From an uncultured Nitrososphaeraceae archaeon (lineage in GTDB: Archaea; Thermoproteota; Nitrososphaeria; Nitrososphaerales; Nitrososphaeraceae): DNA of 64,000 nt. The notes beneath the pieces are model-generated. The model was not told where the DNA came from and did no database searches. It saw nothing but the letters and a program-made list of their open reading frames with translations. Shown here piece after piece: positions 25,584 through 46,150 of the stretch; the first letter of the stretch is position 1; each line of letters opens with the position of its first letter. Made by a program: the position numbers and the translations under genes. The DNA lies in contig CAWIMJ010000022.1 of NCBI GenBank assembly GCA_963837175.1, positions 18,826 through 82,825 of the forward strand, written 5' to 3'.

Positions 25584-25815
25584 TTTATTTTCTTCTTATA
25601 TTAAAGACTGATTTTTGGTATATAATAATTGAGGAACATATGCCTAAACAACGTATGTATTTCTTTAGTTTCTCAGCATGCTTATAGCTTGGATTTAGAG
25701 AATCGTACCACAAGTAAGAAAAAGAAGATGTATATTATACAAGTGTGTTTTTCCTCATTATACTCAATTGAAGAATAATGGAAAAAGATAGCAGGAGAAT
25801 AATGGAGAGATTTGG

Positions 25816-26502: not shown

Positions 26503-26507
26503 CCAAT

Positions 26508-30659: not shown

Positions 30660-31208
30660 TTACAACTCTTCCATCATTTCTGTATAATTATTCACAACTT
30701 TGTCTACAAAACTCTCTTGGTATTTGTATAATATATTCGCAATTGCCTCTCCATCTACAACTCTATAAAGCTGACGCTTCTCTCCAGGTATTATTGATAT
30801 TATTCCAGCATCCCTAAGCCGTTTCAGATACCATGAGACGGTAGATGGAGCTTTATTCACATGGTCAACTATTTCATTAAAGATACATGAATCATGTTGC
30901 AGTATGAATATCGCCATCTTCCTTGTAACCTTATTTCTGAAATAACCAATAATATCTGATTCTTCCTTTGGAATATTGACAATATAGTATCTCGTAACTC
31001 TGTTATTGTATCTATCGATCCTTATCTTACCCAGTCTTTCAAGTATTGTCAAATGATAACTCAATACTCCATTTTTTAATCGAGTTAAGCGTAAAAGCTC
31101 CTTGTATCTGATCCCTGGAGTTTTATAAATATTTTCTAAAATAACGCTTTTGGTATCGGGCTTGTTGATGTTTCTTGAAGTTATTTCTTCCTGTCTATAT
31201 AATATCAC
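30660..31208 (-). CDS. Double winged-helix transcription regulator (COG3398-like)
   Basis: IYKTPGIRYKEL..GVLSYHL and FNEI...APSTVSWYLKRL. Confidence 0.88.
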   Translation of the reverse strand: MILYRQEEITSRNINKPDTKSVILENIYKTPGIRYKELLRLTRLKNGVLSYHLTILERLGKIRIDRYNNRVTRYYIVNIPKEESDIIGYFRNKVTRKMAIFILQHDSCIFNEIVDHVNKAPSTVSWYLKRLRDAGIISIIPGEKRQLYRVVDGEAIANILYKYQESFVDKVVNNYTEMMEEL

Positions 31209-31624
31209 GATTTATTATTCACCCTAACAAATCCAATGCCAAATAAAGTAAGCATTACAAATAGAATTAAGTGTGGTATTTCTATATTAACTACGGGAAT
31301 TATTATATTTGTATCCTCTATTTCCATCATGGAATAAGATAGGTATAGGATTTCAATTACCACAAGTGAGAAGAAACCAAGGGTCATAAATAATAGCCTG
31401 GAACTACTCTTTCTCTTGTATGCAAGCGTTGATACAACGCTTAGAAAAACTGCTATAATGAGGCTTACTATATGAAGAAAAATGTGATAAATAATATTTG
31501 TATGTGTGATGTTTGGAAGAATTACAGGTATAGCGAGTATAGCAGTTATAGATACAGATATAATTAAAAATAATTTATATTTACTAGCTGTAATATTCTG
31601 TAAAGATGCCTTTCCTGACTGCAA
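31205..31624 (-). CDS. His-containing 4-TM membrane protein overlapping the wHTH gene
   Basis: THTNIIYHIFLH, AYKR..SRLLFMTLGF and IPHL; 4-nt overlap with the downstream regulator. Confidence 0.82.
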   Translation of the reverse strand: MQSGKASLQNITASKYKLFLIISVSITAILAIPVILPNITHTNIIYHIFLHIVSLIIAVFLSVVSTLAYKRKSSSRLLFMTLGFFSLVVIEILYLSYSMMEIEDTNIIIPVVNIEIPHLILFVMLTLFGIGFVRVNNKS

Positions 31625-31660
31625 TGCCCATATTAGTAATATTTGAACTAATTTAAATAC

Positions 31661-31678
31661 TATGGTACAAATATCGAA
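31661..31678 (-). promoter_or_regulatory. Conserved 18-bp promoter motif, copy 1
   Basis: TTCGATATTTGTACCATA-GTA-TTTAAAT upstream of 31624. Confidence 0.7.
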
Positions 31679-32208
31679 GTTAACATTTAATTATTAGTAA
31701 AAATAACAAAAATTTGCATCAGATAGATTTTCCTTTATACTAAGAATCGCTACCGTTGTTATGAGGAGATCCAACATCTTTTCTTGTAAAATATATATTT
31801 TGTTAGCAGTAGAAAGAACTGAGTAAAATAACTTTACAATAACGGCCTATAATACTGTAGTATTATATTATATGTGTCTCTCTCACATATGCTTCTGTAC
31901 ATAAGTAATAAAGCTCTATAGTGCATCTTAATTTATAAACACAGTTAATTATAATATTAATAGTATAATAGAAAAATATTAAATTAAGTATGCTTTTGTT
32001 GCATTCCGAAGCTCATAATTACCATTACCTTATTGTGAAGTTAAGATGGATATCGCATTAACTACCTATTTTTACATAATAATTATTTTACCCAGTTCTA
32101 TCTACTGCTACAAAATATATATTTCACAAGAAATAAAAAATTCTTTTTTATTTATGCTGTATATATTATCTTAACGGGGATGATGAACATCAAAGAGAAA
32201 AGGACTAA

Positions 32209-32679
32209 AGCTCACGAATTATCAAGATTAATGATAATCAATCCAAGATCTTAAAACATATTGCTAAAACTCCAGGAGTTAGATATAGAGAGCTTTTAAG
32301 ATTAACAAGGCTAACCAACGGTGTACTTTCATATCATCTGAAAATTCTTGAGGAATCAAGAAGTATAAAAGTTAATAGAGAGGGGATTAAAATGACAAGG
32401 TATTATCCAAAAAATATCAAGACTAAAGAATTTCATGTTATAGCCTATACCAGAAATAGTACGGCTAGACAGATAATACAATTATTGCTTAAACAAGGCC
32501 ATTCTACTTTTAAAGATATTGTAAAACACACAAACAAAGTACCATCCACAATATCATGGCATCTGAAAAGACTTGAGAACGGGAAAATTATCTCAGTTAG
32601 TCACAAGAAATTTCATGTATATAGAATAAGGAATAAAGAGAAAGTAGGCGAAATAGTTGCCAAATATACAAATATATAG
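32209..32679 (+). CDS. Third COG3398-like wHTH regulator; 5' end disrupted or non-ATG start
   Basis: The frame is open from 32209 (ILKHIAKTPGVRYRELLRLT..GVLSYHL), a paralog of 30660-31208. In-frame TAA at 32206. Confidence 0.75.
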   Translation, partial: SSRIIKINDNQSKILKHIAKTPGVRYRELLRLTRLTNGVLSYHLKILEESRSIKVNREGIKMTRYYPKNIKTKEFHVIAYTRNSTARQIIQLLLKQGHSTFKDIVKHTNKVPSTISWHLKRLENGKIISVSHKKFHVYRIRNKEKVGEIVAKYTNI

Positions 32680-33127
32680 ATAAGTAGAATACCAGTTAAT
32701 AAATAAAAGCTTATCTTAACTTAAAGAAGCCTATAACATCTATATTATTTATATAATACTCCTCCAAATTGTAATACAATCTCTTGGGATAACCTTTTGT
32801 ATAAATCGAACATGCTATTATCACACCTATTATTGAAATAATTACGCAGGTATTCCTAATAGACCCAGTTTGAAAAATTTAGGGAAATCAAATAGATCGA
32901 CCTAACCCCAATTTAACTACAAATGCTATTATAATCGAAGACATAAACTAATGTGCATTTAGCTGATGATAGACATCGCATTTTACATTCAATAGATAAA
33001 ATAATTCATCCCATTAAGGATTCTGTAAAGTCATTATCTCATAGTATATGTATAATGTCTAGCACAATGAGACTAAGAGTTTACAGTATCACAAAATAAA
33101 GAAAATGATATGTATTAGTCATCATTT

Positions 33128-33913
33128 TTATTGAGGAGCTTTAACTGTTACCTTAAAAGAGTGATTTAGATCATATGCCCCATTTCTTTGTACAATAATC
33201 TTGATATCCCATTCACCAGGCTGGCTAATATAACCTCCCTCAGTGCCATATACTCCATTTTCAAGTTTATGCAAATTTGCAACAATTGGTCCTATTCCAG
33301 CTTGTTTGTCATTAAATTGCATTATGACATTCTTTATATTGGTAGGAGCCTTGCCTGATGCATCAGTAAGTGTTACATTGAATTTATTATTTATACCAGC
33401 ATACAATGGACTTATTTTATATTGCAAAGTTATATTATCGATCGTAACTTGATCGGAGAATGTATTATTTTTATTTGATAAGTTAGTTTGAGCAGCTGCT
33501 GCCTGTGCAGGTTTTATGGTAAATACATAAGAACCTTTTGTTATGTGTCCGTCATCACGAGAGAATGCAAGCCAGGAGACAGTATAAACTCCAGGTGTAA
33601 GTTTATTCTTATCTAGTGTAACAGTAGCTTGTCTACCATTTTGCCCTGTAATTGCATAATCATTATTATCTACCCGATTATTTTTGGCATCTGTTACATG
33701 TATATAGCTTGCTTTTGGTTCTGGCCTTTCTGAAAATGATATTACCACTTTTGTTGGCAGAGATCCATTTTGTACAATAATAGAATTTATTGCTGGAGAA
33801 TATGACACAGGAGATGCGTGACCATAAACATTACTTGAAAATGAGCTCACAATAACAGGAACTAGAAGCAATGTGATTATTGCATGACTTAGTGAAAAAT
33901 AATTTTTTTGCAT
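33128..33913 (-). CDS. copC: CopC domain plus YtkA/FixH-like Ig domain
   Basis: VYG|HASPVSYSP, FSE and YTVSW...DDGH motifs; C-terminal GIGPI..G.Y..QPGEWDI. Confidence 0.88.
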   Translation of the reverse strand: MQKNYFSLSHAIITLLLVPVIVSSFSSNVYGHASPVSYSPAINSIIVQNGSLPTKVVISFSERPEPKASYIHVTDAKNNRVDNNDYAITGQNGRQATVTLDKNKLTPGVYTVSWLAFSRDDGHITKGSYVFTIKPAQAAAAQTNLSNKNNTFSDQVTIDNITLQYKISPLYAGINNKFNVTLTDASGKAPTNIKNVIMQFNDKQAGIGPIVANLHKLENGVYGTEGGYISQPGEWDIKIIVQRNGAYDLNHSFKVTVKAPQ

Positions 33914-33947
33914 ATGAGATAAATATGTATATCTCAGTCTTAAACTT

Positions 33948-33965
33948 TATAGTACATCTCTCGAA
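33948..33965 (-). promoter_or_regulatory. Conserved 18-bp promoter motif, copy 2
   Basis: TTCGAGAGATGTACTATA-AAG-TTTAAG upstream of 33913. Confidence 0.7.
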
Positions 33966-34229
33966 TATTGAATAAAAGATATTATAAAAATTATAAAATG
34001 GATAATGTACTATCATCTTTCTATCTCTGCAAAAAGGTACCTGATGCTCTTATCATGCAATATATATTAAAAAACATGCTGAAGTAATTATCATTATTTT
34101 GCTGTTGCTGCAATGATAATTGGACTAATTTTATGGAATAGAATAAGATAAAAAAACTCATTAGAGCAGCATCATACACCCTACAATTCTTATTAAATAA
34201 AAAGACAACAGACTGAATATATATCTAAA

Positions 34230-34952
34230 TTAAGTACTTTTGCGAGAAAATGCCACGACTGCTATAACAATTCCTGCCACACCAACTCCCATTCCCGTTA
34301 TACCTATCAGGAAGGATTTATCTGCTGTCTTTTTCACATCTTGAAATGATTTCTGTATATTTGCATCATTTTTAGCTAAGGTATCTATATCACCTTTAGT
34401 AACATCAATATCGTTTGTTAATTGGCTGAGGATTCTTTCAACTTCTGCTCCAATGCTAGTGGCAGGAGTATTAGTATTAGTACCCTCACCAGTATTGCCA
34501 GAATCTGGAAAAGAGAGCTTTTGCTTACTTTCTACATCATCTAGGGGTATTTCAGCATTGACAATACTCTGTCCTTGTAATGTTCCATTCAATACCAAAC
34601 TATAAGATCCTAGTCTTGTTGGAATCATCTCAGCTTGATATAGTCCTGCTGACTGTTCTGATGGTTTAAAATCAAGAGTCTTTGTTACTCCACCGTATTT
34701 TACCAAGATATACATTTCAGCTAAGGCATTTCTTACTGGTGTAGAATTGCTCTCAGTTCCTTTGTTTACTTGAACAATAGCATTATTTATTTCACCAACA
34801 AGTGATGGCTCGTTACTCCAACCTACCTCCACTGTAAAATTACCAAATGTCTTTGATATGTGAGCATATACAGGAACCTGAGTACTAGATGCAAAAACAG
34901 TAATCAGCAATAACACAGCAATGATCATCAAGGGTATTATAATAAATTTCAT
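34230..34952 (-). CDS. Membrane-anchored exported protein with mature N-terminal His
   Basis: VYA|HISK, VGWSNEP, coiled-coil stalk, C-terminal TM; paralog of 45449-46117. Confidence 0.85.
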   Translation of the reverse strand: MKFIIIPLMIIAVLLLITVFASSTQVPVYAHISKTFGNFTVEVGWSNEPSLVGEINNAIVQVNKGTESNSTPVRNALAEMYILVKYGGVTKTLDFKPSEQSAGLYQAEMIPTRLGSYSLVLNGTLQGQSIVNAEIPLDDVESKQKLSFPDSGNTGEGTNTNTPATSIGAEVERILSQLTNDIDVTKGDIDTLAKNDANIQKSFQDVKKTADKSFLIGITGMGVGVAGIVIAVVAFSRKST

Positions 34953-35085
34953 TTTAGTATTGAAAAATACATATTGTTATATTATCATTTACGAAGAATC
35001 TTGATACTAATCTTTATTGTCTTTCATCGAAAATATACTATAAAAGGTAAAAATGCTATAAACTCAATACGCTATATACATTATT

Positions 35086-38000
35086 ATGAGAAGACATTTT
35101 GGAAGGTTACATTTCCATCATATCTTATGTCCTGTTATAGTGATTGCAGTATTATCAATTTTAATGTTAATTTCTTTACCATCCATACCTAAATCATATG
35201 CTCATGCTTTTGTAATGAATAGCAATCCATCGCCTTCACAAACTTTAGAGTCACCACCGACAAAAGTCGAAGTTTACCTTAGTGAACCAGTTGATCTAAG
35301 ATACAGTAAACTGAGTGTTATAGGTCAAGATGGAAAGCAGATAGACAACAAGAATGTACAATATGTTAACGGGGATCAAACTGCATTAACTGTTACTCTT
35401 CCCCATGATATTAAGGATGGATTGTACACAGTCTCTACAAAAATGCTCTCTCAAATAGATGGTCATGTTACAGACAATGCTTTTGTATTTGGAGTAGGTG
35501 AGGCAGAAATTCCAAATAATATTTCAAGTGAAGGTCTACAGTCTTCTTCTTCTCAACTATCAATACTTGATGCAATTGCAAGGTTCCCTGCATTGGTCGG
35601 TCAAGTCATGATTGTTGGTGCAGCATTTGCAAATCTATGGTTATGGAGACCTATGTCTAAAATTAATTGGTTGAAAAGTGCTTTTGCACAAACAAGGAAT
35701 AGAGTTGACAGGAGTTTAATAAAATTGATAGTAGTTGGTTCTGTTATACTAGTTTTATCTGATTTCGGCATGATTTATGTTCAAGCCTATTCCATCAATG
35801 CGGGAATAGCTGATGCTATTGCCACGAAGTTTGGCACTATATGGATTGTTAGAACTTTAGAATCTTTTGTAGTACTTGTTATTGCAGTAGTTATACACCT
35901 AAAGTTAAAAAAAACAAATTCTACAATTCCATCTAAGCAAGATATTTTGAGTATATTAGTAGTTGGCCTTGCAATGCTTGCGACTACTACTTTGATTGGA
36001 CACAGCTCTGCTGTTGGTAATGTAATACCAATTGCAATAGATTTTATGCATAATTTAGCAGCCTCGATATGGATTGGTTCTGTTATTTACCTCGCCTTTG
36101 TTGTAGTTCCAAAAATAAAGCAAGCACCTCTCGAGGAACACGTAAAAGCTTCAGTATTGTCAATCATAATTCCAAGATTTTCAACTATCCCGGTAGTGAT
36201 ACTAGGAATAATAGTAATTACAGGACCATTTCTGTTATACATTCTCGAAACTAATCTTGACTTAATTTTAGCATCTTTGTACGGAAAAGCGCTTATAGCA
36301 AAATTAGTACTCGCTGCAGTAATGATCAGTATCGGAGGATATAATCAGACAGTAATATACAGACAAGCCCTGAAGGTTGCTGCTATTGCTATGACTACTT
36401 CATCATCATCAACATCAATAACAACATCACCACCGACAAGAACTCTTAGTACTAGTAATAGAAGCAGCTCACTGAAAAGAAGACAAGGAGCACCCAAGCA
36501 AACACAAAATAACAATGACAAGGAATTGCCATCATCTTCCTCTTCCTCCTCCTCTTCTAATTCATACAGACATTATATTTCAAAGATGTCTACTGTTTCA
36601 AAATTAAACACGAGTACAAAGATTGAAGCAATTGTCGGAATCCTTCTACTTGTAGCTGTTGCTGTATTGGTTAATACAGGGTTGCCAGCAAGCGAGTTCC
36701 AGAACCAACAACAGATAATACAACAAAAGATACAAGCAGAGGCTCAGACTTTGTCCTCAAAAAATATAAAATACAACACATTTACATCTACAAAGTTCGT
36801 AGAAAATGGCACTAGAATCAAGCTATCAATAGATCCGTTTACTCCAGGTAATAACAATTTCAAAATATCATTTTTAGATCAAGACAGAAATCTTTTAGAT
36901 ATAAAGTCTGTGAAATTGAAACTAACCCAAATAGAACAAGGTATAGGTCCAATTGAAGTAGACACTAAACAGATTTCTAAAGGAATATTTTCTGCTAATG
37001 CTGCTTTTGGTTTATCTGGAGAATGGAACGTACTGGTCGAAGCATTTCAGAATAAGGCAAATTCGCTCAATGTTGTTGCAACCTATAATTTATTTGTGAA
37101 ACCCACGCTAGATCAAATGAAGTTTAATGTAAGGGAATTTAGAATAACTGGTAGTAATAATGATAGCCAACCTTTGTACCCTCTCTATGATAATAGTCGT
37201 AACGTAATATGGGTTGGAGATACAGTAATTGATAGCGGTAGAATATTTGAATTTAGCCTAAATTCAAATAAATTTACAGAACATAATATCAATGATACTA
37301 GTATTGTAACTGTTATGGCTTTGGACCATAATAATCAAATATGGTATGCTGACCCTTTAATGAGACACCTAGGACATTATGATCCAAATACCTATACAAA
37401 CCAAATATACAAAATTCCAAGTCCAGATTTCAGTCCATCTGGTATAGCCATAGATAGGAGTGATAACGTATGGCTTACATCTGCAAACACTAGTAGTATA
37501 TTGAGGTTTAACACTCAAGCTAAGAACTTCACAACCTTTCAGTCTCCAACTACAAATATAACTGCTGCATTAGATATTATGATAGATCCTTCAGATCAAA
37601 TATGGATTGCAGAAGGAGTAGGAAAACTAGCCAATATAGATCCAGCTAACAACTTTAATGTTACTGAATATTCTCCAAAAGGCAAAAACAATACCCTAGT
37701 TAATCCTATAGCATTGCTTGCTGATCCTATTACCGGCGATATTTATATATCGGAACATGATGGATATGCAGTATCAGTTTTCAATCCAGTAATAAAGACA
37801 TTTAAAGAATATCTACCTCTTAATTCAAATGGTAAGCCATTTGGAATGGCACTAGATAGCAATAAAAATTTGTGGATTGCTGAGCAAACTATAAACAAAA
37901 TAGCAATAATAGATCCCCGCACTGGTGAACATAAGGAAGTAACAATACCTTCACCAAGTCCATTCATCCAATGGCTAACTTCAGATTCCAGAGGGAACAT

Positions 38001-38298
38001 ATGGTTTGCAGAGCAACGAGGAGATTCCCTTGGTGTTATAACAATCAATGCTAATCCTTTACAATCTGGCTCCCCAGCAGGAGATACTACTGCTAATAGT
38101 TTAAGTAATAACAATCAATCCAGCAGTAATGGATATAATGGTTTTATTCCTCATCAATATGGTTTTAATTATACTGAAATCGTTGGTCCTGCAGTAGCTG
38201 CAGGTATAATAGCCAGTGCATTATTTTATACAAAAAGCATTACTGATTTAAGAAATAGCATGAAGCAAGCAAATAAAGGCGTTAACAGCAAGTGTTGA
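35086..38298 (+). CDS. CopC-CopD-YtkA-like-beta-propeller (Vgb/NHL-like) fusion with C-terminal TM
   Basis: SYA|HAFV...DGH, GHS and HNLAASIWIG, GEWNV, and repeated P.G.A.D...N.W.. blades. Confidence 0.9.
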   Translation: MRRHFGRLHFHHILCPVIVIAVLSILMLISLPSIPKSYAHAFVMNSNPSPSQTLESPPTKVEVYLSEPVDLRYSKLSVIGQDGKQIDNKNVQYVNGDQTALTVTLPHDIKDGLYTVSTKMLSQIDGHVTDNAFVFGVGEAEIPNNISSEGLQSSSSQLSILDAIARFPALVGQVMIVGAAFANLWLWRPMSKINWLKSAFAQTRNRVDRSLIKLIVVGSVILVLSDFGMIYVQAYSINAGIADAIATKFGTIWIVRTLESFVVLVIAVVIHLKLKKTNSTIPSKQDILSILVVGLAMLATTTLIGHSSAVGNVIPIAIDFMHNLAASIWIGSVIYLAFVVVPKIKQAPLEEHVKASVLSIIIPRFSTIPVVILGIIVITGPFLLYILETNLDLILASLYGKALIAKLVLAAVMISIGGYNQTVIYRQALKVAAIAMTTSSSSTSITTSPPTRTLSTSNRSSSLKRRQGAPKQTQNNNDKELPSSSSSSSSSNSYRHYISKMSTVSKLNTSTKIEAIVGILLLVAVAVLVNTGLPASEFQNQQQIIQQKIQAEAQTLSSKNIKYNTFTSTKFVENGTRIKLSIDPFTPGNNNFKISFLDQDRNLLDIKSVKLKLTQIEQGIGPIEVDTKQISKGIFSANAAFGLSGEWNVLVEAFQNKANSLNVVATYNLFVKPTLDQMKFNVREFRITGSNNDSQPLYPLYDNSRNVIWVGDTVIDSGRIFEFSLNSNKFTEHNINDTSIVTVMALDHNNQIWYADPLMRHLGHYDPNTYTNQIYKIPSPDFSPSGIAIDRSDNVWLTSANTSSILRFNTQAKNFTTFQSPTTNITAALDIMIDPSDQIWIAEGVGKLANIDPANNFNVTEYSPKGKNNTLVNPIALLADPITGDIYISEHDGYAVSVFNPVIKTFKEYLPLNSNGKPFGMALDSNKNLWIAEQTINKIAIIDPRTGEHKEVTIPSPSPFIQWLTSDSRGNIWFAEQRGDSLGVITINANPLQSGSPAGDTTANSLSNNNQSSSNGYNGFIPHQYGFNYTEIVGPAVAAGIIASALFYTKSITDLRNSMKQANKGVNSKC

Positions 38299-38793
38299 TT
38301 ATTAAGGCATAGGAGTAGTTAGTTGGTGTGCATTCTGCCGTATATCATGACGACTTTTAAGGAATTGCTTTTAATCTTAATGTTTGTTTTATATGTTATG
38401 TATATATTTATTTTTTGAAGGATACTACCTGTATCTTAATATAAAGAAGGGCTCTTTTAACTTTGCCATTATCAGTTAAGACTGCTATGAGTTTAACTCT
38501 ATCTGTTACCATATATAGAGATCAGTATATAGAGACACAAAATATATCCCGTATGCTATTACAGCTAGGCATGCTTCAGCTATAGACTATACCAATAAAA
38601 GAATTCACTTAAATTAACGAAGCCTAAATCACTCACTGCTACTTAGAAGAAGCATATTGGCAATAATAATAGCAGAGCAACAACAAGTATCGATAAAAAT
38701 TAATATGAAATAAAATGAGATGAGAATATCATCTTGTTGTAATTTTATAGTAATTATTTTTTATAATAAGATCGCTCTTCCTATTTTGACTTT

Positions 38794-39415
38794 TTATTGG
38801 CCCATTGCTGCAGTAGCGTTAGGGCTGATGTCATCTGCTGATTCATATTCTTCATACAAATGCAAAATTTTATCGACACCTATGGCCACTGTACCTCGTA
38901 TCTGGTAACTTTATATCATCCACTCCTGGATTTTTAATCACTATATCTGTAATTATAAATCCACCTTGTGGAGGCAAATCTATATGATACATGCATAGCT
39001 TACCTGGAGTTGATAGATTTTGCACTAGTTTTAATTCAGCTGGTTGTAGTTCAGGTATGGATCCTGTAAGTACAGTCAATGTAGAATTTGAATTATCATC
39101 ACATGGTATCTTTGCAGTGATATGTCCATTAACTATTGCATATGGTGCACTATCATAAAGTTGAATAAAACCACCTGCAGGAATTGTTTCATTTGAAAGG
39201 AGAATTGTAGAAGAGTCCCTTACTATTGTACCTTGCTGTTGTTTTGAACTTTCCTCTGCTATGCTACTAGGTTCTTCCATGGTGGTAGTATTTGTAGTTG
39301 TATTTGTAGTAGTCTCTTGTGCTACCGCAATATCTACAACTCTGTTTAACATAAAAACCATAGAAATTATAACTGCTATTAAAATGCCACTAACGAAAAA
39401 TCTTTTGTTTAGCAT
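38794..39415 (-). CDS. Exported His/Cys protein, paralog of 42944-43444, with a 1-nt frameshift near 38895
   Basis: VRDS, LYDS.PY.IVNGHI.AKIPC and LCMYH motifs. The shifted frame continues TVAIGVDKI, matching the paralog's TVVVGVNEI. Likely start ATG at 39415. Confidence 0.8.
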
Positions 39416-39448
39416 TAATGAATGGTCGTAGACATCATTTTTAAACTT

Positions 39449-39466
39449 TGTAGTACAACCATAAAA
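39449..39466 (-). promoter_or_regulatory. Conserved 18-bp promoter motif, copy 3
   Basis: TTTTATGGTTGTACTACA-AAG-TTTAAAA. A back-to-back plus-strand copy, TTCTATAAATGTACTATA, lies at 39471-39488. Confidence 0.6.
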
Positions 39467-40115
39467 CATATTCTATAAATGTACTATAAAATAAATAAAT
39501 GCATCAAAAGAATTACAAATAGTTTGGATTTGGATAATAATAGCAGTTGAACAACTATATATAGAAGACAATTCTTGGATTCATGTCTCATGAGAAAGAA
39601 ACATGCTTTTGTAGTTGCATAATAATTTCTGAGTTAGTTAGCAAGGGAACATAAAAATTGCTATTTAAATAGAAGCAGTGTAATATGGTTGATATCATGC
39701 CAAGTCTAAAATTTCTGAAAATAATAATGCATATCTAATCTCTTCATTATTCATATGGAAAAAGTGTCATATGAAAGAGAACAATCCAATAATTGAAGAA
39801 CAGAACTCAATGTTGTTGGTTATGCAATTAACAATAACCATTGACTATATATTGTTGCTACAATCAGGATGTATTCTCGTGACTTTAATAGGATATTCTT
39901 AGAGGGATATGGTAATATCAATCAATTTTTCTTTTGTTTCTTTAACTACATAAAGTCAATATCGATCTGGATGATGTCTCCGGATGACATCTCAGTTTTT
40001 TTGATGTAACTATGGTATGATGTGTTTGACCTATTTTGGCATATTCAACTCATCCACGATAATATTATAAAGGCCTGGCTTTGGATTATTATTTATGATC
40101 TTACAGAAGACACCA

Positions 40116-40350
40116 CTAGCCTAACTTAACGGAGCAGTATAAAATTAAAGAAATTGAAATAAAAGTAGATAGTTTTGATACATTTGCGTTTTGTATATTC
40201 TGTAATTCAGCTAATGATATCGTGAGCTCATTAGCAACTCGGTGATTTCTTTCTTCGATTTCTTTTATCCAAGTTTTATTTAGAAGTTCAACAACATTTT
40301 CTGCATGTTTTTGAACCAATGAAACGTTGTTGTTAGTTATGAACTCATCT
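40116..40350 (-). pseudogene. Fragment of a helical exported-protein gene next to an IS relic
   Basis: QKHAENVVELLNKTWIKEIEERN.RVANEL, with no intact start. Confidence 0.35.
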
Positions 40351-40426
40351 GGAAAGTAATTTGATATATTACTCTAGATTCTCTCACTCGCTTACCTATA
40401 GCTTAAATCATGTCTAATTGATGCTA

Positions 40427-40805
40427 GTGAGATTCGAAGAGCTAATGGATGATCATTGGAAGCTATTAGTACCATCAATTCCTGCTCCTGCTCATACTGG
40501 TAGACCTAGAGCTGATGATAGGAGTACTATCAATGGCATCTTGTATGTCCTTATGAGTGGATGTAGATGGATGGATGGATATGCCTCCAAAGTATAGCTC
40601 CTACAAAACAGTTTGGGAACGGCACAAGAAGTGGAGTATCAAAGGTGTATGGAAAAATATTATGAATTCCCTGGTATCACGTAGCTATGCTTCTGGATTG
40701 ATAAACATAGACTACCTATCTGTAGATAGCAGCACTGTAGGAGCCAAGAAAGGGGGCAAGAAATAGGCTTTGATGATGGTCATAAGCGGATGAAGGGAAG
40801 CAAGG
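40427..40805 (+). mobile_element. Truncated IS5-family transposase relic
   Basis: GRPRADDRSTINGILYVLMSGCRW, GGAT-duplication frameshift, then DSSTVGAKKGG and DGHKRMKGSK before truncation. Confidence 0.85.
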
Positions 40806-40931
40806 ACATTTTGCAAAGAATGGTGCAGCAGCCAACGCTGGATGAGTATAGAGGCCATCCACAATTACTAGTCCTAACAAGCCGAGTACTCCTACTATAG
40901 CAAAGATTGCCAACATTGTTTCTGTAGGCAT
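40805..40931 (-). pseudogene. Small secreted peptide gene cut by the IS5 relic
   Basis: MPTETMLAIFAIVGVLGLLGLVIV...ALAAAPFFAKCP runs into IS sequence. Confidence 0.35.
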
Positions 40932-41235
40932 CACTTGAGAATTGGTGGAATAATATATGAGTTTGTCGGTAAAACCGTTGTTAACAAGATAAAGAAAAGG
41001 TTTTACATTAGTTTGTGCATATCTTTTCTGCAAGAAGAGACGGAAGGTAAAAGAAAAGTAGGGTACTTTAATTAATACTTTTGAAGAAATTAGAAAATAA
41101 CAACAACAAAAGCAAATCTCGCAAATCCAAATAGAGCTAGCATTAACCTATAAGAAGTATTAGAATGTTTGATTTATTCAATTAGTAATTAAAAACCATA
41201 TCAAAGTAAAGTGTATCCGAATCAAATGATATCGG

Positions 41236-41817
41236 CTATAATCCTTTTGGGAAATGATAACTTGAGGGTATTGTATCTGGAGGCTTGCCGTAAACTATTG
41301 CAATCTCGTCATGGCTATTTAATTTTATATCTCTATAATCTACTGAACTTGCTTTGTTACCGTTTACGTATACGCTTAATGTGTTATTTTTATTGTTACT
41401 AACAATATTGTCAAATATCTGAGTATTGTTGAATTTTTCATTCCAAATATCAAAGAACTGTCCAAGGGTAAAGTTTCTATTTTCTGGTGATTCTATATGG
41501 ATAACTCCAGTATCATCGTGTGTATGCATCCAATAGAGGCATTTGCTAGGTATGATACCAATTTGAGAAGGGACGGTGTAATGTTTGCCGTTAATAAAGA
41601 TATCTAGATGTGCATGGATATGAAAAGTAAGATGTTCTATCACTTCACATCTTATATTGTCTATTCCTAATGAAGAAGACGATGCTGACGCTAACAATGT
41701 ATTTGGTGCCATAGTCGCAAATATTCCAACACCTACAAAAATTGCAATCAAAACACTCATAGTAATAATAGTCAATCTTTTGTAGTTTTTTTTGTTAGTG
41801 CTTGACCTGGGATGCAT
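41236..41817 (-). CDS. Membrane-anchored exported His-rich protein
   Basis: N-terminal TM, C...HLTFHIHAHL, CLYWMHTHDDTGVIHIE and FTLGQFF. Confidence 0.88.
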   Translation of the reverse strand: MHPRSSTNKKNYKRLTIITMSVLIAIFVGVGIFATMAPNTLLASASSSSLGIDNIRCEVIEHLTFHIHAHLDIFINGKHYTVPSQIGIIPSKCLYWMHTHDDTGVIHIESPENRNFTLGQFFDIWNEKFNNTQIFDNIVSNNKNNTLSVYVNGNKASSVDYRDIKLNSHDEIAIVYGKPPDTIPSSYHFPKGL

Positions 41818-42276
41818 ATAAAAACAGCGTTTATGCTAATCGTTTTTTAGAGATAAAAATGTTTTCTATAATAATTCATAGATATAAAAAGAATGTAAAC
41901 TATTGTAATATCGGAAGTTGGTTCCTATATAAATGTGGTAAAATATATTATCTATTCTAATATTATATTATTGCTGTTTAAACGAATATCTTTTGATATT
42001 GTTATATTTCAATGTACATCAATAGGACTCTAGTGTAATACAATGCATTGTATCAAATTTATCTAGCCAATCTCGTGAATGAAGATATGTCTCTGGAAGG
42101 AAAACTATGAGTAGATGCATAAGATTAGTTGTTGCCCCAATAGATAATATTGTTAATAGTATGTAACATATTAAAAATTAAATCGTGCCTAATCCATATT
42201 ACATAGTCGAAATAATTTGACTAATTGCGATAGTAATAATAAAAATCTTCTTGATACAATTTCAAATTACAAGTTA

Positions 42277-42888
42277 TTACTGCTTAATTCTTCCCGCTGA
42301 TTTTCTAGATGCATAATAATATATTAAACCAGCTGCAGTTATTGCAGTTATGATAGGTAATACAAAGTAAATTATGAATTCACTAAAAGATATTCCTACA
42401 GAAACATCATAATTAACAACTAATGGATTTTCTTCATATTTTGGATCTCCAGCTATTCTAGCCTGTAATATTACTTGATAATCAGCACTTTTGTTAAATA
42501 CATACGGAATAGTAATATCGCCAAATTCATGCAATCTGTAAGGAATATGTGCGACAACCTTATCTGGATTTTTTTCTTTTATTGTTAACGCTGCAAATAC
42601 ATTATAAACATCTGTATTGTTCTGTTGAATACTAAAGTTTAATTTGGTAGTAGAATTATCATCTGCTAATATAACAGAAGGAGAGGTTCGAAATTTTATT
42701 TGATATTTATCAATGTTTTTTATTGTTTGACCTCCGCCAAAAATATGGGCATCGGCAAGATTATTTCTTCCTTGGTGGTCCAAAGGATTAGTACCCAGAC
42801 TATTAATACTAAGAAGAATAAGAATGACATTGGTAACTATAAACAAATATAATAAATAAAAAAGAAATGAAAAAATAGTTTCTTTCAC
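42277..42888 (-). CDS. Exported Ig-like protein with ADA|H site and C-terminal TM
   Basis: LADAHIFGG, HEFGD and a C-terminal hydrophobic anchor. Confidence 0.8.
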   Translation of the reverse strand: MKETIFSFLFYLLYLFIVTNVILILLSINSLGTNPLDHQGRNNLADAHIFGGGQTIKNIDKYQIKFRTSPSVILADDNSTTKLNFSIQQNNTDVYNVFAALTIKEKNPDKVVAHIPYRLHEFGDITIPYVFNKSADYQVILQARIAGDPKYEENPLVVNYDVSVGISFSEFIIYFVLPIITAITAAGLIYYYASRKSAGRIKQ

Positions 42889-42943
42889 ATACTTTTAGTG
42901 ACTCATTGCGTCATTTTAGGATACTGGTAGTATCTTTCGTTCA

Positions 42944-43444
42944 TTATTGATGTTCTTCAGCGCCAGGCATTATTTCATTGACACCTACAACCACTGTACT
43001 AGTCTCTGGAAAGTCTATACTACTGTCAGTCGGGTTCTGAATAGCTATATCAGTAGTAGTTGTCACATTTTTCTGTGGAATGTCAACGTGATACAAGCAT
43101 AGTTCACCTGGTGTGGACAAATTCCCATCAATTAATTCTAATTCAGCTGGTTGAAATGATGGTGCCGATCCTGTAAGTATATTTAATTCAGCCTCTGAAT
43201 CATCATTACATGGTATCTTTGCAGCTATATGTCCATTCACTATCTTGTATGGGCTACTATCATAAAGGTGTATGTAACTCATTGCTGGAATCGATTGGCC
43301 GGAAAGAAGCAATGTAACAGTGTCTCTTACTACTGTACCTGTGGGTGCTTGAGCTGTAGCAGGAGTTGTACTTGCAGTATTCATGAATACCATAGATGTT
43401 ATTACTGCTGCTAAAACAGCTATCAATGATTTCTTGTTTTGCAC
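42944..43444 (-). CDS. Secreted His/Cys protein
   Basis: Signal peptide, YIHLYDS..NGHIAAKIPC and LCLYH. Confidence 0.88.
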   Translation of the reverse strand: MQNKKSLIAVLAAVITSMVFMNTASTTPATAQAPTGTVVRDTVTLLLSGQSIPAMSYIHLYDSSPYKIVNGHIAAKIPCNDDSEAELNILTGSAPSFQPAELELIDGNLSTPGELCLYHVDIPQKNVTTTTDIAIQNPTDSSIDFPETSTVVVGVNEIMPGAEEHQ

Positions 43445-43477
43445 AAAAATTGGTTCTTACGTCTTATATATAACTGT

Positions 43478-43495
43478 TATAGTACATCTATTGAA
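43478..43495 (-). promoter_or_regulatory. Conserved 18-bp promoter motif, copy 4
   Basis: TTCAATAGATGTACTATA-ACAG-TTATATAT upstream of 43444. Confidence 0.7.
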
Positions 43496-43847
43496 TAGAA
43501 CTATCGTCTTTAGCTGAGTAGATTATATGCCTATTCTACCGCATTTCTTAAATGTCAGACAATATAACAATTAACAGAGTTAGGAAATACAGAATAAAGG
43601 ATTACTTGATAATTATCATCTCGCTAATGTGATCGAAGAAGAATAAGGAGTGATACAGTCAACTAATGACACATCTTTTTTCTCCTAGTGGTTGCCACCA
43701 ATAAAAAATTGTATTCAGGATTTGTTGAAAAAAATTAAAATCGTCTATCATTTATATCATTATGATATTTCACTAATATGAGAATATAGTCATCTTTAAA
43801 TTTTCTATTATTTTGACATTAGTAGGATTTTCAGAAATTCTATTGAC

Positions 43848-45356
43848 TTAATGATTAGCTTGCAAAGAATCTAATGTTTTCTTTATCTCTCGTTTACTCC
43901 TTACAAAAGATATAATACTTCCCGTCAAAACTGCTGCCGATAAAATGATAACCAGAATAGCAAACGCGTCAAAAGATGGCATTTCATTTTTAGTAGTAGT
44001 AGAAGTAGCTAATCCGTTTAAATTAGAATTTTCTGCCATTGACACAGATGGTGGCGAAGTTATTGTAAGAAACGAAGTTATAAAGAGAATACCCATACCT
44101 ATAAATGATTCAATCCTGATAGTCTTACTAAATTTTGCAAATGGATCGGCTTGTAGTGAATTGCTGCCGCCAGATGTAGTTGCTGCTGAACTACGCTTGT
44201 TATCATTTGATTTTTTTCCCCCTTTACCAATTTTAGCAACTAATACAAAGCTATCATGGAGTCTAAATTGATGATAACCACCAAGGATAACCATAGGCAA
44301 AATAGCAGACAGCTTAATTATTAGAACGTTCCCATACATGGTATCAAAAATTGCTCCGACTGTATGAAGATGGATCCAAGCCATATATAGTCCTGTTACA
44401 CCAATTATACCAAGTGAAATTGTAGCTATGAGAGAAAAATATGGAAGTAATACAGCAAGAAAATAAGTATTTCTTGTTTTATTAGTTTCATATTGCTGGT
44501 TTACAGGTTCAGTTAGATTTATTGTTGATCTTATTGTGACTAAAAGTATGACAGAAATATAAAATACGCCTCCAACCCAGATAGATACTGCCATAAAATG
44601 CAGCCAGTTTATTGAGATGGCTAATGACGGAAGGAATGATAATGCGGCACTATGGCTGACTACACTGTTAGAGAAGATGCTTATTGCGCCTGACAGTATT
44701 ATAACATATAATAATACTATAGAAAGACTCAGATTTCTTTTCCTTTGTTTACTGTACGTATGATGCTCTTCTTCGGTTGTCCTTTTAATTTTCTTCTTTT
44801 CCAAAATGTAATACAATATAGAGGATACGACAATTATCGATGAAGTTATAATCCTTAATATCCAAACTGGTCCCACAGAAGTAGTGGTCAATATTGTAAA
44901 AGTGGTACTGACATCCAAGCCTAATTCTGAAGACATACTGATTGTTTGTAGATATATCAAAGAGCTTGCGGTAACCAGTATAGTTAGACTACATACAACA
45001 AGTAGAATGAACAATCTCCTTAAAGGCTGCAAACTACTACTACTATTATCCACGGGCACGTTATTTTTGTAATTTGGTTGAATTCTACTCCGTAGTACTC
45101 TGTGTAGAAATACATGATTAAATACTCCTCCTACTATGGCTGCCTGGGATATCATCATTGGTGCTTTCAGTAAAGCATCGTAAGTGGAGGTAACCGACTC
45201 TATATGAGTAGAGTCAAGGCCATCCTGAGCGTGAACTGTAGTAGGTAGGAAACTCGTAGGCATCAAAATAAAGGATATTATAATAACTAATATTCCTGCT
45301 ATTATCATAAAATTGTTCATCATGAGAGTTTTTTTTCGATGTGTTTCAGTTTCCAT
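43848..45356 (-). CDS. copD: CopD-family copper uptake membrane protein
   Basis: SHSAA, WLHFMAVSIWVGG, TGLY, YG..LIIK and GGYHQ motifs. Confidence 0.88.
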   Translation of the reverse strand: METETHRKKTLMMNNFMIIAGILVIIISFILMPTSFLPTTVHAQDGLDSTHIESVTSTYDALLKAPMMISQAAIVGGVFNHVFLHRVLRSRIQPNYKNNVPVDNSSSSLQPLRRLFILLVVCSLTILVTASSLIYLQTISMSSELGLDVSTTFTILTTTSVGPVWILRIITSSIIVVSSILYYILEKKKIKRTTEEEHHTYSKQRKRNLSLSIVLLYVIILSGAISIFSNSVVSHSAALSFLPSLAISINWLHFMAVSIWVGGVFYISVILLVTIRSTINLTEPVNQQYETNKTRNTYFLAVLLPYFSLIATISLGIIGVTGLYMAWIHLHTVGAIFDTMYGNVLIIKLSAILPMVILGGYHQFRLHDSFVLVAKIGKGGKKSNDNKRSSAATTSGGSNSLQADPFAKFSKTIRIESFIGMGILFITSFLTITSPPSVSMAENSNLNGLATSTTTKNEMPSFDAFAILVIILSAAVLTGSIISFVRSKREIKKTLDSLQANH

Positions 45357-45448
45357 TTCTCATACTTAAGTAATACACATGCTGAATGATAAAAAAGGAA
45401 AAATTAAGTTCTCTTTGTGATTTCATGATTTTTGCTCATTTACTCTTT

Positions 45449-46117
45449 TTATTTCATACCAGTTGAATTTTCAGATCTGGACAGCATCTTTTGTATCTCT
45501 ACATTAGACATATATGGTTCTGGAAATCCAGCATCAGTTCTTGGAAGAGGACATCCAAAACTTCCCATTATTGACTTTCTTGTTACTCCTTGTGACAGTT
45601 GCGTTGTAGAATTGTCTGAAATAGGAGTTTCATCTCCTCCCGCTGGACTACAAGTCCATGTTGCATTAAATGCAGTACCATTAATGTCTCCGAATAGACG
45701 ATAATTATATGTAGTTTCTATTGTTGGAAAGAATGGTGCTTCATAATGACCTGGATCTCTGAATGCAGGTTCAAAATCTAGTGTCTTGTTCTTATCACCG
45801 GCAGATATCTCTACTTTTAACATTTTTTCTAATCCTTCTATAGGTCTTGTTCCATTTGCTTGGGAATTTACAGGATCAGATGCATTAGGCCAATAAGCAA
45901 ATAATTCTACCCCAGACTTGTCATCAACAAAAACTGGTTCATTCACAGATCCAACCGCAAACAAATAATCTTTGTCTCCTATTGTAAACAACTGCCTTTG
46001 ATGAGCAAATGCAAATTGCGTATTTACTACTGATGCAAATAATAGTAGTGTGCCAGTAGCAATCGCGCTAAAAATAACTGTATGTGGATTTATCATTGCA
46101 GCAGTATCACGAATCAT
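45449..46117 (-). CDS. Secreted protein with mature N-terminal His (likely start 46096)
   Basis: AFA|HQRQLF, VGSVNEP, KTLDFEP..GHY..PT; Cys pair at the C-terminus. Confidence 0.85.
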   Translation of the reverse strand: MIRDTAAMINPHTVIFSAIATGTLLLFASVVNTQFAFAHQRQLFTIGDKDYLFAVGSVNEPVFVDDKSGVELFAYWPNASDPVNSQANGTRPIEGLEKMLKVEISAGDKNKTLDFEPAFRDPGHYEAPFFPTIETTYNYRLFGDINGTAFNATWTCSPAGGDETPISDNSTTQLSQGVTRKSIMGSFGCPLPRTDAGFPEPYMSNVEIQKMLSRSENSTGMK

Positions 46118-46132
46118 ATTATATTTAAGATA

Positions 46133-46150
46133 TATGGTACAACTATCGAA
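46133..46150 (-). promoter_or_regulatory. Conserved 18-bp promoter motif, copy 5
   Basis: TTCGATAGTTGTACCATA-TAT-CTTAAATA. Confidence 0.7.

What the first reader, a model, noticed from the sequence alone, without database searches (positions are those of the whole stretch)
31651..46150. Shared 18-bp TATA-proximal motif defines a putative copper-acquisition regulon
Seen: five minus-strand promoters carry TTCGATATTTGTACCATA (31661), TTCGAGAGATGTACTATA (33948), TTTTATGGTTGTACTACA (39449), TTCAATAGATGTACTATA (43478) and TTCGATAGTTGTACCATA (46133). Each ends 3-4 nt before a TATA box lying about 25 nt from a likely leaderless start. The genes are the His-containing membrane protein/wHTH pair, copC, both His/Cys paralogs and the His1-protein/copD operon. 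Weaker copies lie at 39471 (+), 25695 (+) and about 35024 (+). Inference: this is an activator site abutting the BRE, or an extended BRE read by one TFB paralog. Its presence at the regulator's own operon suggests autoregulation. I know of no described operator like this.
Basis: partly seen in the sequence, partly recalled or inferred. Interest (0 to 1): 0.88.

Follow-up and report, generated by a model that had tools for sequence, protein, structure and literature searches.

The report
Known copper-starvation promoter motif, new genome
The shared 18-base element in front of these copper-uptake genes is real and strongly conserved, but it is the local version of a promoter motif already published for copper-starved Nitrososphaera viennensis, most likely the docking site of a regulator encoded in the same locus.

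Summary
All five minus-strand 18-mers sit at the stated coordinates. Each lies 3 nt upstream of a TATA-like box that starts 30-33 nt before the start codon.

A weight matrix built only from sites in other genera ranks these sites 1-3 (18 nt) or 1-4 (with TATA) among 7.6 million positions of the 3.81-Mb genome. No canonical site was found outside the window.

Reyes et al. 2020 (PMC7785015) describe an 18-nt motif, TTCSGSMTTTGWACYANT. It lies upstream of genes induced by Cu limitation in N. viennensis, including copC/D and an ArsR-type regulator operon.

- The register to TATA is fixed: 3 nt at most genes, 13 nt at copCD.
- The motif is conserved widely across Nitrososphaeraceae, at 48 of 63 membrane-protein/regulator operons and 18 of 20 copCD genes.
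- Sites occur as overlapping palindromic pairs and as back-to-back pairs.
- It co-occurs with a tandem winged-helix regulator (28 of 76 genomes against 1 of 75).
- A paralogous regulator carries its own variant, TTAGA...YGTACC.

Best reading, inferred and not shown: an upstream activator site read by the co-transcribed tandem-wHTH protein. Verdict: a new member of a known kind, of moderate interest.

The parts
31661..31678 (-). Motif copy TTCGATATTTGTACCATA at the promoter of the membrane-protein/regulator operon. TATA-like box at 31650-31657; TTG start at 31624.
   Evidence: Rank 1-2 of 7.6M genome positions with matrices trained on other genera. The orthologous operon carries the motif in 48 of 63 cases.
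31205..31624 (-). 139-aa membrane protein, first gene of the operon. Relatives keep His47, His51, His118, Glu91 and Glu115 invariant. His38 and His41 are nearly invariant; the window has Asn at position 38.
   Evidence: Weak MASE3 match in 7 of 23 members and weak DUF7521 match in 4 of 23.
30660..31208 (-). 182-aa tandem winged-helix regulator (HVO_0163-type N-terminal wHTH plus ArsR-type wHTH). Its start overlaps the membrane gene's stop by 4 nt. Candidate reader of the motif.
   Evidence: Pfam. Model pLDDT 86.4. PDB comparisons. Co-occurrence with the motif.
33948..33965 (-). Motif copy TTCGAGAGATGTACTATA at the CopC promoter. TATA-like box at 33937-33944; ATG at 33913.
   Evidence: Genome rank 3. 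The same site stands upstream of copC in two congeners.
33128..33913 (-). Exported CopC-domain protein, 261 aa.
   Evidence: Pfam CopC 1.4e-15. NCBIfam copper_CopC 60.8 bits, below its cut-off of 95. RNA-library contigs cover 33176-33898.
39449..39466 (-). Motif copy TTTTATGGTTGTACTACA. TATA-like box at 39438-39445; ATG at 39415. It drives the 181-aa paralog at 38870-39415.
   Evidence: Genome rank 16 (18-nt matrix) or 4 (29-nt matrix).
39471..39488 (+). Motif copy TTCTATAAATGTACTATA, back-to-back with 39449(-) across a 4-nt gap. A TAAATAAA box follows, but no ORF of 25 aa or more starts before 39771. Orphan or decayed divergent promoter.
   Evidence: Three relatives show the same back-to-back geometry.
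43478..43495 (-). Motif copy TTCAATAGATGTACTATA. TATA-like box at 43467-43474; GTG at 43444. It drives the 166-aa exported protein at 42944-43444, and probably 42277-42888 as well.
   Evidence: Genome rank 21 or 14. Homologues carry the motif in 8 of 15 cases. RNA-library contigs cover 42940-43406 in four runs.
46133..46150 (-). Motif copy TTCGATAGTTGTACCATA. TATA-like box at 46122-46129; likely start ATG 46096. It drives the His1 protein at 45449-46096. CopD (43848-45356) lies 92 nt downstream.
   Evidence: Genome rank 1-2. Orthologues are 212-214 aa and carry the motif in 2 of 5 cases.
35025..35042 (+). Decayed motif remnant CATCGAAAATATACTATA, 13 nt upstream of CTATAAAC (35056-35063) and of the ATG 35086 of the 1070-aa CopC-CopD fusion. 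It is the positional counterpart of the intact copCD site of other genera.
   Evidence: (PWM -9.1). 18 of 20 copCD orthologues elsewhere carry the motif.
25695..25712 (+). Variant motif TTAGAGAATCGTACCACA upstream of the paralogous tandem-wHTH regulator (25816-26502) and its membrane partner (26508-26966).
   Evidence: The variant pattern occurs only twice in the genome, once upstream of each copy of this paralog. It is also present at both orthologues in another genus.

Best explanation
The 18-nt element (consensus here TTCGA-N4-TGTACYA-N2) is the AT-rich local form of the Cu-limitation promoter motif published for Nitrososphaera viennensis. It is a binding site for a dedicated transcription factor.

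The most likely factor is the 182-aa tandem winged-helix protein at 30660-31208. It is co-transcribed with a small His-rich membrane protein from a promoter that carries the motif itself.

The two conserved blocks, TTCG(A) and TGTACYA, are centred 10 bp apart. They lie on one face of the helix, which suits one wHTH domain per block.

The site points in one direction and sits in a fixed register upstream of BRE/TATA: 3 nt at most genes, 13 nt (one turn more) at copCD in relatives. From there the bound factor would help recruit TFB/TBP and switch on leaderless Cu-acquisition genes, including its own operon, when copper is scarce.

Shown here: the motif, its register, its conservation, its target families and its co-occurrence with the regulator.
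Inferred: which protein binds, that binding activates, and that Cu is the signal. The Cu response comes from the N. viennensis paper, not from this organism.
For: Motif and geometry.

Genome-wide specificity. A matrix from 61 unique sites of other genera places 46133, 31661 and 33948 at ranks 1-3 of 7,619,390 positions. With TATA included, 31661, 46133, 33948 and 39449 take ranks 1-4. Six of the top 21 hits fall in 14.5 kb, where about 0.08 would be expected (my arithmetic).

Published identity. PMC7785015 passages describe an 18-nt TTCSGSMTTTGWACYANT, found 12 times at -35 to -70 from start codons of Cu-limitation-induced genes. These include copC/D_b and NVIE_014290, which is co-transcribed with the ArsR regulator NVIE_014280. 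The window's motifs start 51-54 nt before their start codons. GC-rich relatives carry forms such as TTCCGGCTTTGTACCAAT at the orthologous operon.

Conservation upstream of orthologues in other genera:
- membrane-protein operon: 48 of 63
- copCD: 18 of 20
- the 166/181-aa family: 8 of 15
- His1 family: 2 of 5
- all other ORFs of 100 aa or more: 30 of 873.

Register. Of 160 unique high-scoring sites taken without any TATA filter, 73 have a TATA-like pentamer at offset exactly 3. Twenty-eight have one at other offsets and 59 have none detected. The copCD class has motif + 13 nt + TCAAATAT.

Regulator link. The composite motif+TATA pattern gives 47 hits against 6 for the reversed control in 151 genomes. 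It occurs in 28 of 76 genomes that have the regulator and in 1 of 75 without it (my cross-tabulation). Many hits lie about 460-540 nt upstream of the regulator gene. A paralogous regulator carries its own variant, TTAGA-N4-YGTACCRCA, in two genera.

Position rule. Archaeal activators typically bind upstream of the BRE. TrmBL1 activates from upstream sites and represses from downstream ones (passages in PMC5512572 and PMC4706686).
Against: - No binding, expression or 5'-end data exist for this organism.
- The literal published IUPAC string finds only 1 of the 5 sites at <=3 mismatches, and that count is at chance level (3 hits against 2.9 expected). Identity therefore rests on shared blocks, register, gene context and intermediate forms. 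I did not compare directly with the N. viennensis sites, which are in supplements I could not open.
- The last three motif positions plus the 3-nt spacer occupy the BRE position, so occlusion of TFB by a repressor also fits the 3-nt class.
- The TATA assignment in the 13-nt class is inferred from distance to the start codon alone.
- In families f9 and f13 the regulator is common (10 of 10 and 25 of 32 genomes) but the strict composite pattern is rare (2 of 10 and 3 of 32).
- Related genomes are not independent samples.
- The window's own copCD and 34230-34952 promoters lack a scoring motif.
Confidence: 0.6

Rival explanations
1. The motif is a repressor operator. A Cu-loaded repressor, either the same tandem-wHTH protein or another, sits against the BRE and blocks TFB. 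When Cu runs low it leaves and the genes are derepressed.
For: - Motif positions 16-18 plus the 3-nt spacer cover the 6 nt directly upstream of TATA.
- The C-terminal wHTH resembles ArsR/SmtB repressors.
- An autoregulated operon is typical of repressors.
- The induction under Cu limitation reported for N. viennensis fits derepression equally well.
Against: - The orientation is strict and the register single. Each of two divergent promoters has its own oriented copy.
- The copCD class sits 13 nt from the TATA box, clear of the BRE.
- No site was seen over or downstream of a TATA box.
- Classical ArsR/SmtB proteins release DNA on binding metal (recalled). For a repressor that would give induction by excess Cu, not by limitation.
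Confidence: 0.27
2. The motif is read by a different factor, for example a CopR-like response regulator as suggested for N. viennensis, or one of the other wHTH paralogs. The neighbouring regulator would then be only a target.
For: - PMC7785015 mentions an induced two-component pair as a possible CopRS.
- The genome has at least five tandem-wHTH loci.
- No binding data exist.
Against: - The regulator operon is the target that carries the motif most consistently (48 of 63).
- The motif and the regulator co-occur (28 of 76 genomes against 1 of 75).
- The paralog has its own variant site.
- Two different half-sites 10 bp apart suit a protein with two different wHTH domains.
Confidence: 0.1
3. The motif is an extended BRE recognised directly by a specialised TFB paralog.
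For: - The genome has 9 TFB loci.
- The motif abuts the TATA box in the main class.
- TFBs are reported as induced in AOA biofilms (PMC12448741 passages).
Against: - The conserved blocks lie 5-20 nt from the TATA box.
- The whole motif is displaced by a further 10 nt in copCD promoters.
- It also occurs as overlapping palindromes.
- No TFB gene lies on this contig.
Confidence: 0.03

Closest known systems
Cu-limitation promoter motif of Nitrososphaera viennensis (Reyes et al. 2020, PMC7785015; passages read, supplements not seen)
   Same: - It is 18 nt long.
- The same blocks stand in the same register: TTC at positions 1-3, T-G-W-A-C-Y-A at positions 10-16.
- It starts 35-70 nt before start codons; here 51-54 nt.
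- It is found at copC/D genes, at exported proteins of unknown function, and at the small membrane protein that is co-transcribed with an ArsR-type regulator.
   Different: - Positions 5, 6 and 18 are A/T here where the paper has G/S/T. Four of five sites need 4 mismatches to the printed IUPAC string.
- The paper's main text does not contain the words TATA or BRE. In the passages I read it reports cross-species conservation only for the separate motif of the down-regulated genes.
- In this genome the sites are confined to one locus. In N. viennensis they also lie at MCO4 and DsbD loci.
Archaeal upstream activator sites: EarA boxes, the Sulfolobus ara-box, TrmBL1 TGM when upstream (passages in PMC5512572 and PMC4706686)
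   Same: It lies immediately upstream of BRE/TATA. The effect is expected to depend on position.
   Different: - The sequence is different and the factor is unidentified. Activation has not been shown.
- The site here is asymmetric and strictly oriented, with two spacing classes one helical turn apart.
ArsR/SmtB metal-sensing repressors and their 12-2-12 operators
   Same: The C-terminal domain is an ArsR-type wHTH (Pfam HTH_5 44.8 bits; best structural matches SmtB, SqrR and CadC at TM 0.68-0.77 of the target).
   Different: - The protein has two unlike wHTH domains in one chain plus a C-terminal helix. No full-length structural match was found (TMq <=0.42).
- The NCBIfam metalloregulator cut-off is not reached (32.7 against 55).
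- The site is bipartite, not a 12-2-12 inverted repeat.
- The genes respond to Cu shortage, not to excess.
Bacillus subtilis ycnKJI
   Same: It is a Cu-limitation-induced cluster with a CopC-CopD fusion, an exported N-terminal-His copper protein and its own autoregulated regulator.
   Different: The regulator family and DNA site are unrelated. It is bacterial, with sigma-70 promoter logic, and YcnK is described as a repressor.
Archaeal Cu-excess regulators CopR/CopT (PMC7830388 seen only as search listing; CopT mention in PMC7785015)
   Same: They are archaeal copper-linked transcription factors.
   Different: They control efflux and detoxification under excess Cu. They belong to a different protein family, and no such motif is known for them.

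Membership tests
Cu-limitation promoter motif of N. viennensis (Reyes et al. 2020) | Literal match to the printed consensus TTCSGSMTTTGWACYANT | tested here: not met
   At <=3 mismatches only 31661 matches. Three window hits against 2.9 expected by chance. The other four sites differ at 4 positions, mostly A/T for G/C in a 34% GC genome.
Cu-limitation promoter motif of N. viennensis (Reyes et al. 2020) | Same length, register and invariant blocks (TTC ... TGWACYA), linked by intermediate forms in orthologous promoters | tested here: met
   35 unique sites upstream of the orthologous operon, in loci of 30-58% GC, run from TTCGATATTTGTACCAAT to TTCCGGCTTTGTACCAAT. T1, T2, T10, G11, A13, C14 and A16 are invariant.
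Cu-limitation promoter motif of N. viennensis (Reyes et al. 2020) | Starts 35-70 nt upstream of the start codon | tested here: met
   The motif's first base lies 51-54 nt before the five start codons.
Cu-limitation promoter motif of N. viennensis (Reyes et al. 2020) | Sits at copC/D-cluster genes and at the membrane-protein/ArsR-type regulator operon | tested here: met
   Pfam CopC, CopD and wHTH. Ortholog counts. Orthology to the NVIE_ genes themselves is inferred from the paper's description, not aligned.
Cu-limitation promoter motif of N. viennensis (Reyes et al. 2020) | Downstream genes are induced by Cu limitation | not testable with these tools
   The only evidence is soil RNA-library contigs that cover four of the genes. 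No condition-resolved data exist for this organism.
Archaeal upstream activator site | Located upstream of BRE/TATA, never over or downstream of it | tested here: met
   All six window sites, and 73 of 160 relatives' sites, end 3 nt before a TATA-like box. The copCD class ends 13 nt before it.
Archaeal upstream activator site | The bound factor stimulates TBP/TFB recruitment | not testable with these tools
   This needs in vitro transcription or footprinting.
BRE (TFB recognition element) | About 6-7 bp directly adjoining the TATA box | tested here: not met
   The element is 18 nt. Its conserved blocks end 5 nt from the box, and the whole motif is shifted by 10 nt in copCD promoters.
ArsR/SmtB metalloregulators (for the candidate regulator) | ArsR-type wHTH domain above curated thresholds | tested here: inconclusive
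   Pfam HTH_5 scores 44.8 bits against a cut-off of 22. NCBIfam HTH_metalloreg scores 32.7 bits against a cut-off of 55.
ArsR/SmtB metalloregulators (for the candidate regulator) | Single-domain protein of about 100-120 aa | tested here: not met
   182 aa with two wHTH domains (residues about 19-76 and about 93-150) and a terminal helix. No full-length PDB match was found.
ArsR/SmtB metalloregulators (for the candidate regulator) | Conserved metal-ligand residues | tested here: inconclusive
   His52 is invariant. The H105-D106-x-C109 stretch is kept within most of the family but lost in more distant homologues. No known site was mapped.

The most novel reading that the evidence does not exclude
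The locus encodes a copper-starvation activator module of ammonia-oxidising archaea that has not been characterised.

- A small membrane protein with five conserved His and two conserved Glu senses Cu. It controls a co-translated tandem-wHTH protein.
- That protein binds as a monomer to a bipartite, oriented site (TTCGA and GTACC, one helical turn apart). The site lies at a fixed helical phase upstream of TATA and switches on leaderless Cu-uptake genes.
- Paralogous sensor/regulator pairs have diverged to read variant half-sites (TTAGA), forming a family of membrane-coupled one-component systems.
Probability: 0.3. Interest if true: 0.75.

Novelty: new member of a known kind. Interest (0 to 1): 0.42.

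Why it matters
Ammonia-oxidising archaea depend on copper enzymes. How they sense Cu shortage is unknown, and the 2020 paper left the regulation of these genes open.

This locus shows that the published motif is not peculiar to N. viennensis. It is a conserved promoter module with exact geometry and an obvious candidate factor. That turns 'a MEME motif' into a short list of direct in vitro tests.

It also gives annotators a usable marker for Cu-acquisition genes among the many Nitrososphaerota-specific hypothetical exported proteins.

Tried and rejected
- Circular matrix. A matrix built from the window's own six sites is circular. I replaced it with matrices from other genera.
- Exact core pattern. 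TTCGN5TGTACYA is too common to be diagnostic: my sums are 117 against 93 reversed-control hits in the 25 genomes of the family.
- Candidates outside the window. Nine high-scoring sites on other contigs were examined; none has an ORF starting at the canonical distance.
- Membrane protein with regulator. Complex prediction returned no verdict (score 0.00, controls not run). This says nothing either way.
- Regulator fold. Fold search found only single-domain ArsR-like matches or loose tandem-WH matches such as ScpB and SarS.
- Target proteins. ESM Atlas gave only Nitrososphaerota hypothetical clusters for the 166-aa and His1 proteins, plus a weak YtkA lead. NCBIfam hits of the 166-aa protein to class C beta-lactamases are far below cut-off and cover the signal-peptide region; I treat them as noise.
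- Recognition helices. Comparing the two regulator paralogs did not show which domain reads which half-site, because both helices differ.
- RNA contigs. They come from assembled contigs of soil RNA libraries, so they show neither transcript starts nor levels. Parts without cover mean nothing.
- Supplements. Dataset S1 and Fig. S8 of PMC7785015 list the N. viennensis sites. They could not be opened, so a site-by-site comparison was not made.
- Literature. Searches for later work on the motif or the regulator found only PMC7785015 describing it.

Full report
**1. Observation**

The five minus-strand 18-mers are present exactly as reported: 31661, 33948, 39449, 43478 and 46133.
- The degenerate pattern TTCRATAKWTGTACYATA gives 4 hits at <=1 mismatch, against 0.00 expected.
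- At <=3 mismatches it gives 6 hits, against 2.02 expected. None of 100 shuffles reaches 6.
- Every copy is followed by 3 nt and a TATA-like octamer.
- The box starts 30-33 nt before the start codon. This holds once the start of the 38870 gene is placed at ATG 39415 and that of the 45449 gene at the second ATG, 46096. Orthologue lengths of 212-214 aa agree with the latter.
- The TTG start of the membrane protein matches the MQ(S/K)G N-termini of 22 relatives.
- The geometry is that of leaderless mRNAs. No 5' end was mapped.

**2. Genes**

Pfam results:
- 30660-31208: a tandem winged-helix protein (HVO_0163-type N-terminal HTH plus ArsR HTH_5).
- 33128-33913: CopC.
- 35086-38298: a 1070-aa CopC-CopD-YtkA-propeller fusion.
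- 43848-45356: CopD.
- 31205-31624: a 139-aa membrane protein. It overlaps the regulator start by 4 nt.

In 23 aligned sequences of the membrane protein, His47, His51, His118, Glu91 and Glu115 are invariant. Seven of the 23 match the MASE3 sensor domain weakly.

The remaining targets are exported proteins specific to Nitrososphaerota, with no known family.

The genome is 3.81 Mb with 34% GC. Its nearest named records are uncultured Nitrososphaeraceae MAGs.

**3. It is already described**

Reyes et al. 2020 (PMC7785015; passages read) report an 18-nt motif, 5'-TTCSGSMTTTGWACYANT-3'.
- It was found 12 times, starting 35-70 nt before the start codons of genes induced by Cu limitation in N. viennensis.
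- The genes include copC/D_b, several exported proteins of unknown function, and NVIE_014290. The last is presumed to be co-transcribed with the ArsR-family regulator NVIE_014280.
- The window's motif has the same length, the same blocks at the same positions and the same gene context.

The literal IUPAC string is a poor probe in this AT-rich genome. It finds 1 of 5 sites at <=3 mismatches, which is chance level.

The link is instead made by a graded series of sites at the orthologous operon, in loci of 30-58% GC.

Searches for later work found no other description. A 2025 paper only notes that the copCD region and NVIE_014290 are induced in biofilms.

**4. Specificity without circularity**

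I trained matrices only on sites from other genera: 35 unique sites at regulator operons and 61 unique sites at any gene. I then scanned all 7,619,390 positions of the window's genome.

| Site | Rank, 18-nt matrix | Rank, 29-nt matrix (with TATA) |
|---|---|---|
| 46133 | 1 | 2 |
| 31661 | 2 | 1 |
| 33948 | 3 | 3 |
| 39471(+) | 9 | 10 |
| 39449 | 16 | 4 |
| 43478 | 21 | 14 |

None of the nine high-scoring candidates on other contigs has an ORF at the canonical distance.

In this 91%-complete assembly the system is therefore a local regulon of about 15 kb. The independent element is that such sites recur at orthologous promoters elsewhere.

**5. Conservation**

Share of orthologues in 77 loci from other genera that have a site scoring >=12 upstream:

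| Gene family | With site / total |
|---|---|
| Membrane-protein gene | 48 / 63 |
| copCD fusion | 18 / 20 |
| 166/181-aa family | 8 / 15 |
| His1 family | 2 / 5 |
| CopD (second gene in its operon) | 0 / 4 |
| Regulator (second gene in its operon) | 0 / 80 |
| All other ORFs of >=100 aa | 30 / 873 |

Many of the 30 'other' hits belong to one further exported family whose mature N-terminus reads HTFS.

Across 151 genomes of the order, the composite pattern (motif + 5 nt + BTTAWWW) occurs 47 times, against 6 for the reversed control. It is found in 21 of 31 other genomes of the family and in a few genomes of four other families.

**6. Architecture**

- *Register.* Among 160 unique high-scoring sites taken without any TATA filter, a TATA-like pentamer lies at offset exactly 3 in 73. 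It lies at other offsets in 28 and was not detected in 59.
- *The 13-nt class.* Many of the 59 fall into two groups. About 17 are copCD promoters that read motif-aaaCAAGCAAGAG-TCAAATAT. There the TATA-like box is 13 nt away and starts 29 nt before the GTG start in the cases counted by hand.
- *Palindromes.* The other group is the second reading of full 23-bp palindromes, TGGTACATTCGnCGAATGTACCA. These are two 18-mers overlapping by 9 nt in opposite orientation.
- *Back-to-back pairs.* A third arrangement has a 4-nt gap. It occurs in the window (39449/39471) and in three relatives.
- *Half-sites.* In every unit the TTCG and GTAC centres are 10 bp apart.

The window's own copCD promoter keeps the 13-nt layout, but the motif has decayed (TGTAC to TATAC, TTCGA lost). 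The same is true in two congeners.

**7. Who binds**

This is inference. The arguments for the tandem-wHTH protein are:
- Its operon is the most constant carrier of the motif.
- Twenty-eight of 76 genomes with the regulator have the composite pattern, against 1 of 75 without it. The hits often lie about 460-540 nt upstream of the regulator gene. Related genomes are not independent samples.
- A paralogous tandem-wHTH/membrane-protein pair (25816-26966) carries a variant, TTAGA-N4-YGTACCRCA. The variant occurs only twice in the genome, once before each of its two copies. It also stands at both orthologues in another genus, where the flanking sequence is otherwise unalignable.
- Two unlike half-sites one turn apart suit a chain with two unlike wHTH domains (model pLDDT 86.4).

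No solved structure matches the whole protein. The C-terminal domain resembles SmtB, SqrR and CadC.

**8. Activator or repressor**

Passages in PMC5512572 and PMC4706686 state that archaeal activators typically bind upstream of the BRE. They also state that TrmBL1 activates from upstream sites and represses from downstream ones.

Here every site is upstream, oriented and in a fixed register. Two spacing classes differ by one helical turn, and divergent promoters each have their own oriented copy. I take this as favouring activation, at roughly 2:1 over a BRE-occluding repressor.

If the ArsR-like habit of binding DNA in the metal-free form holds (recalled), an apo-activator would give induction under Cu shortage.

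The TFB-paralog idea is rejected on geometry, and because none of the 9 TFB loci lies on this contig.

**9. Expression hints**

Contigs from four soil RNA libraries of at least three studies cover the following:
- the 166-aa gene (42940-43406)
- copC (33176-33898)
- the His1 gene (45738-46039)
- the regulator (30851-31054)

None of the listed pieces reaches a motif. Contigs cannot show transcript starts or levels, and DNA carry-over is possible.

**10. Verdict**

The claim of novelty is wrong.

The finding is a new member of a known kind. It carries new architectural detail and a testable candidate factor.

Noticed in passing
window 32194-32700 (+): A second tandem-wHTH paralog, divergent from the regulator operon, is split by a frameshift near codon 12. 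MMNIKEKRTKAHE stands in one frame and the rest in another. The 95-aa 'ArsR' ORF at 32392-32679 is its tail. The congener has an intact 166-aa gene (L031 8705-9205, minus strand). This could be real decay or a MAG assembly error.
   Followed up: partly
window 40116-40346 (-) and 40418-40766 (+): A remnant of the exported 'HTFS' His1 family lies here; residues of about 57-124 of relatives' 270-410-aa proteins align to it. It adjoins a transposase-like fragment (IS5-like by eye) that also appears in RNA-library contigs. The family is a regular motif target in Nitrososphaera-like relatives but is broken here.
   Followed up: partly
window 31205-31624 (-), residue 38: The window's membrane protein has Asn where 21 of 22 aligned relatives have the first His of the conserved PH-x-x-H...YH...LH cluster.
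   Followed up: no
window 34953-35085: Neither divergent promoter here scores for the motif: copCD 35086(+) and the 240-aa exported His1 protein 34230-34952(-). Orthologues in other genera do carry it (copCD 18 of 20; the 240-aa family 1 of 16, plus one clear case in G015). The loss at copCD is shared by two congeners.
   Followed up: partly
G000 contig C12:45447-46124 (-): This is a 91%-identical second copy of the paralogous regulator 25816-26502, with a nearly identical upstream region that includes the TTAGA variant site. It looks like a recent duplication.
   Followed up: partly
window 34230-34952 (-) and 45449-46096 (-): By eye, both exported proteins begin their mature form with His and share a (V/I)G(W/S)xNEPxxVG-like stretch. 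They may be distant relatives. A 206-aa homologue of the first lies after a motif copy in a genome of another family (L111 5392-6009). That copy has no TATA-like box at the 3-nt offset.
   Followed up: no
L111 (G032:C1:1385161-1387369): In a closed 1.58-Mb genome of a different family, three motif copies lie in tandem on one strand. They stand before a 478-aa exported His protein, a homologue of the 166-aa protein (40% identity) and a homologue of the 240-aa protein. The module therefore seems to reach beyond Nitrososphaeraceae.
   Followed up: partly
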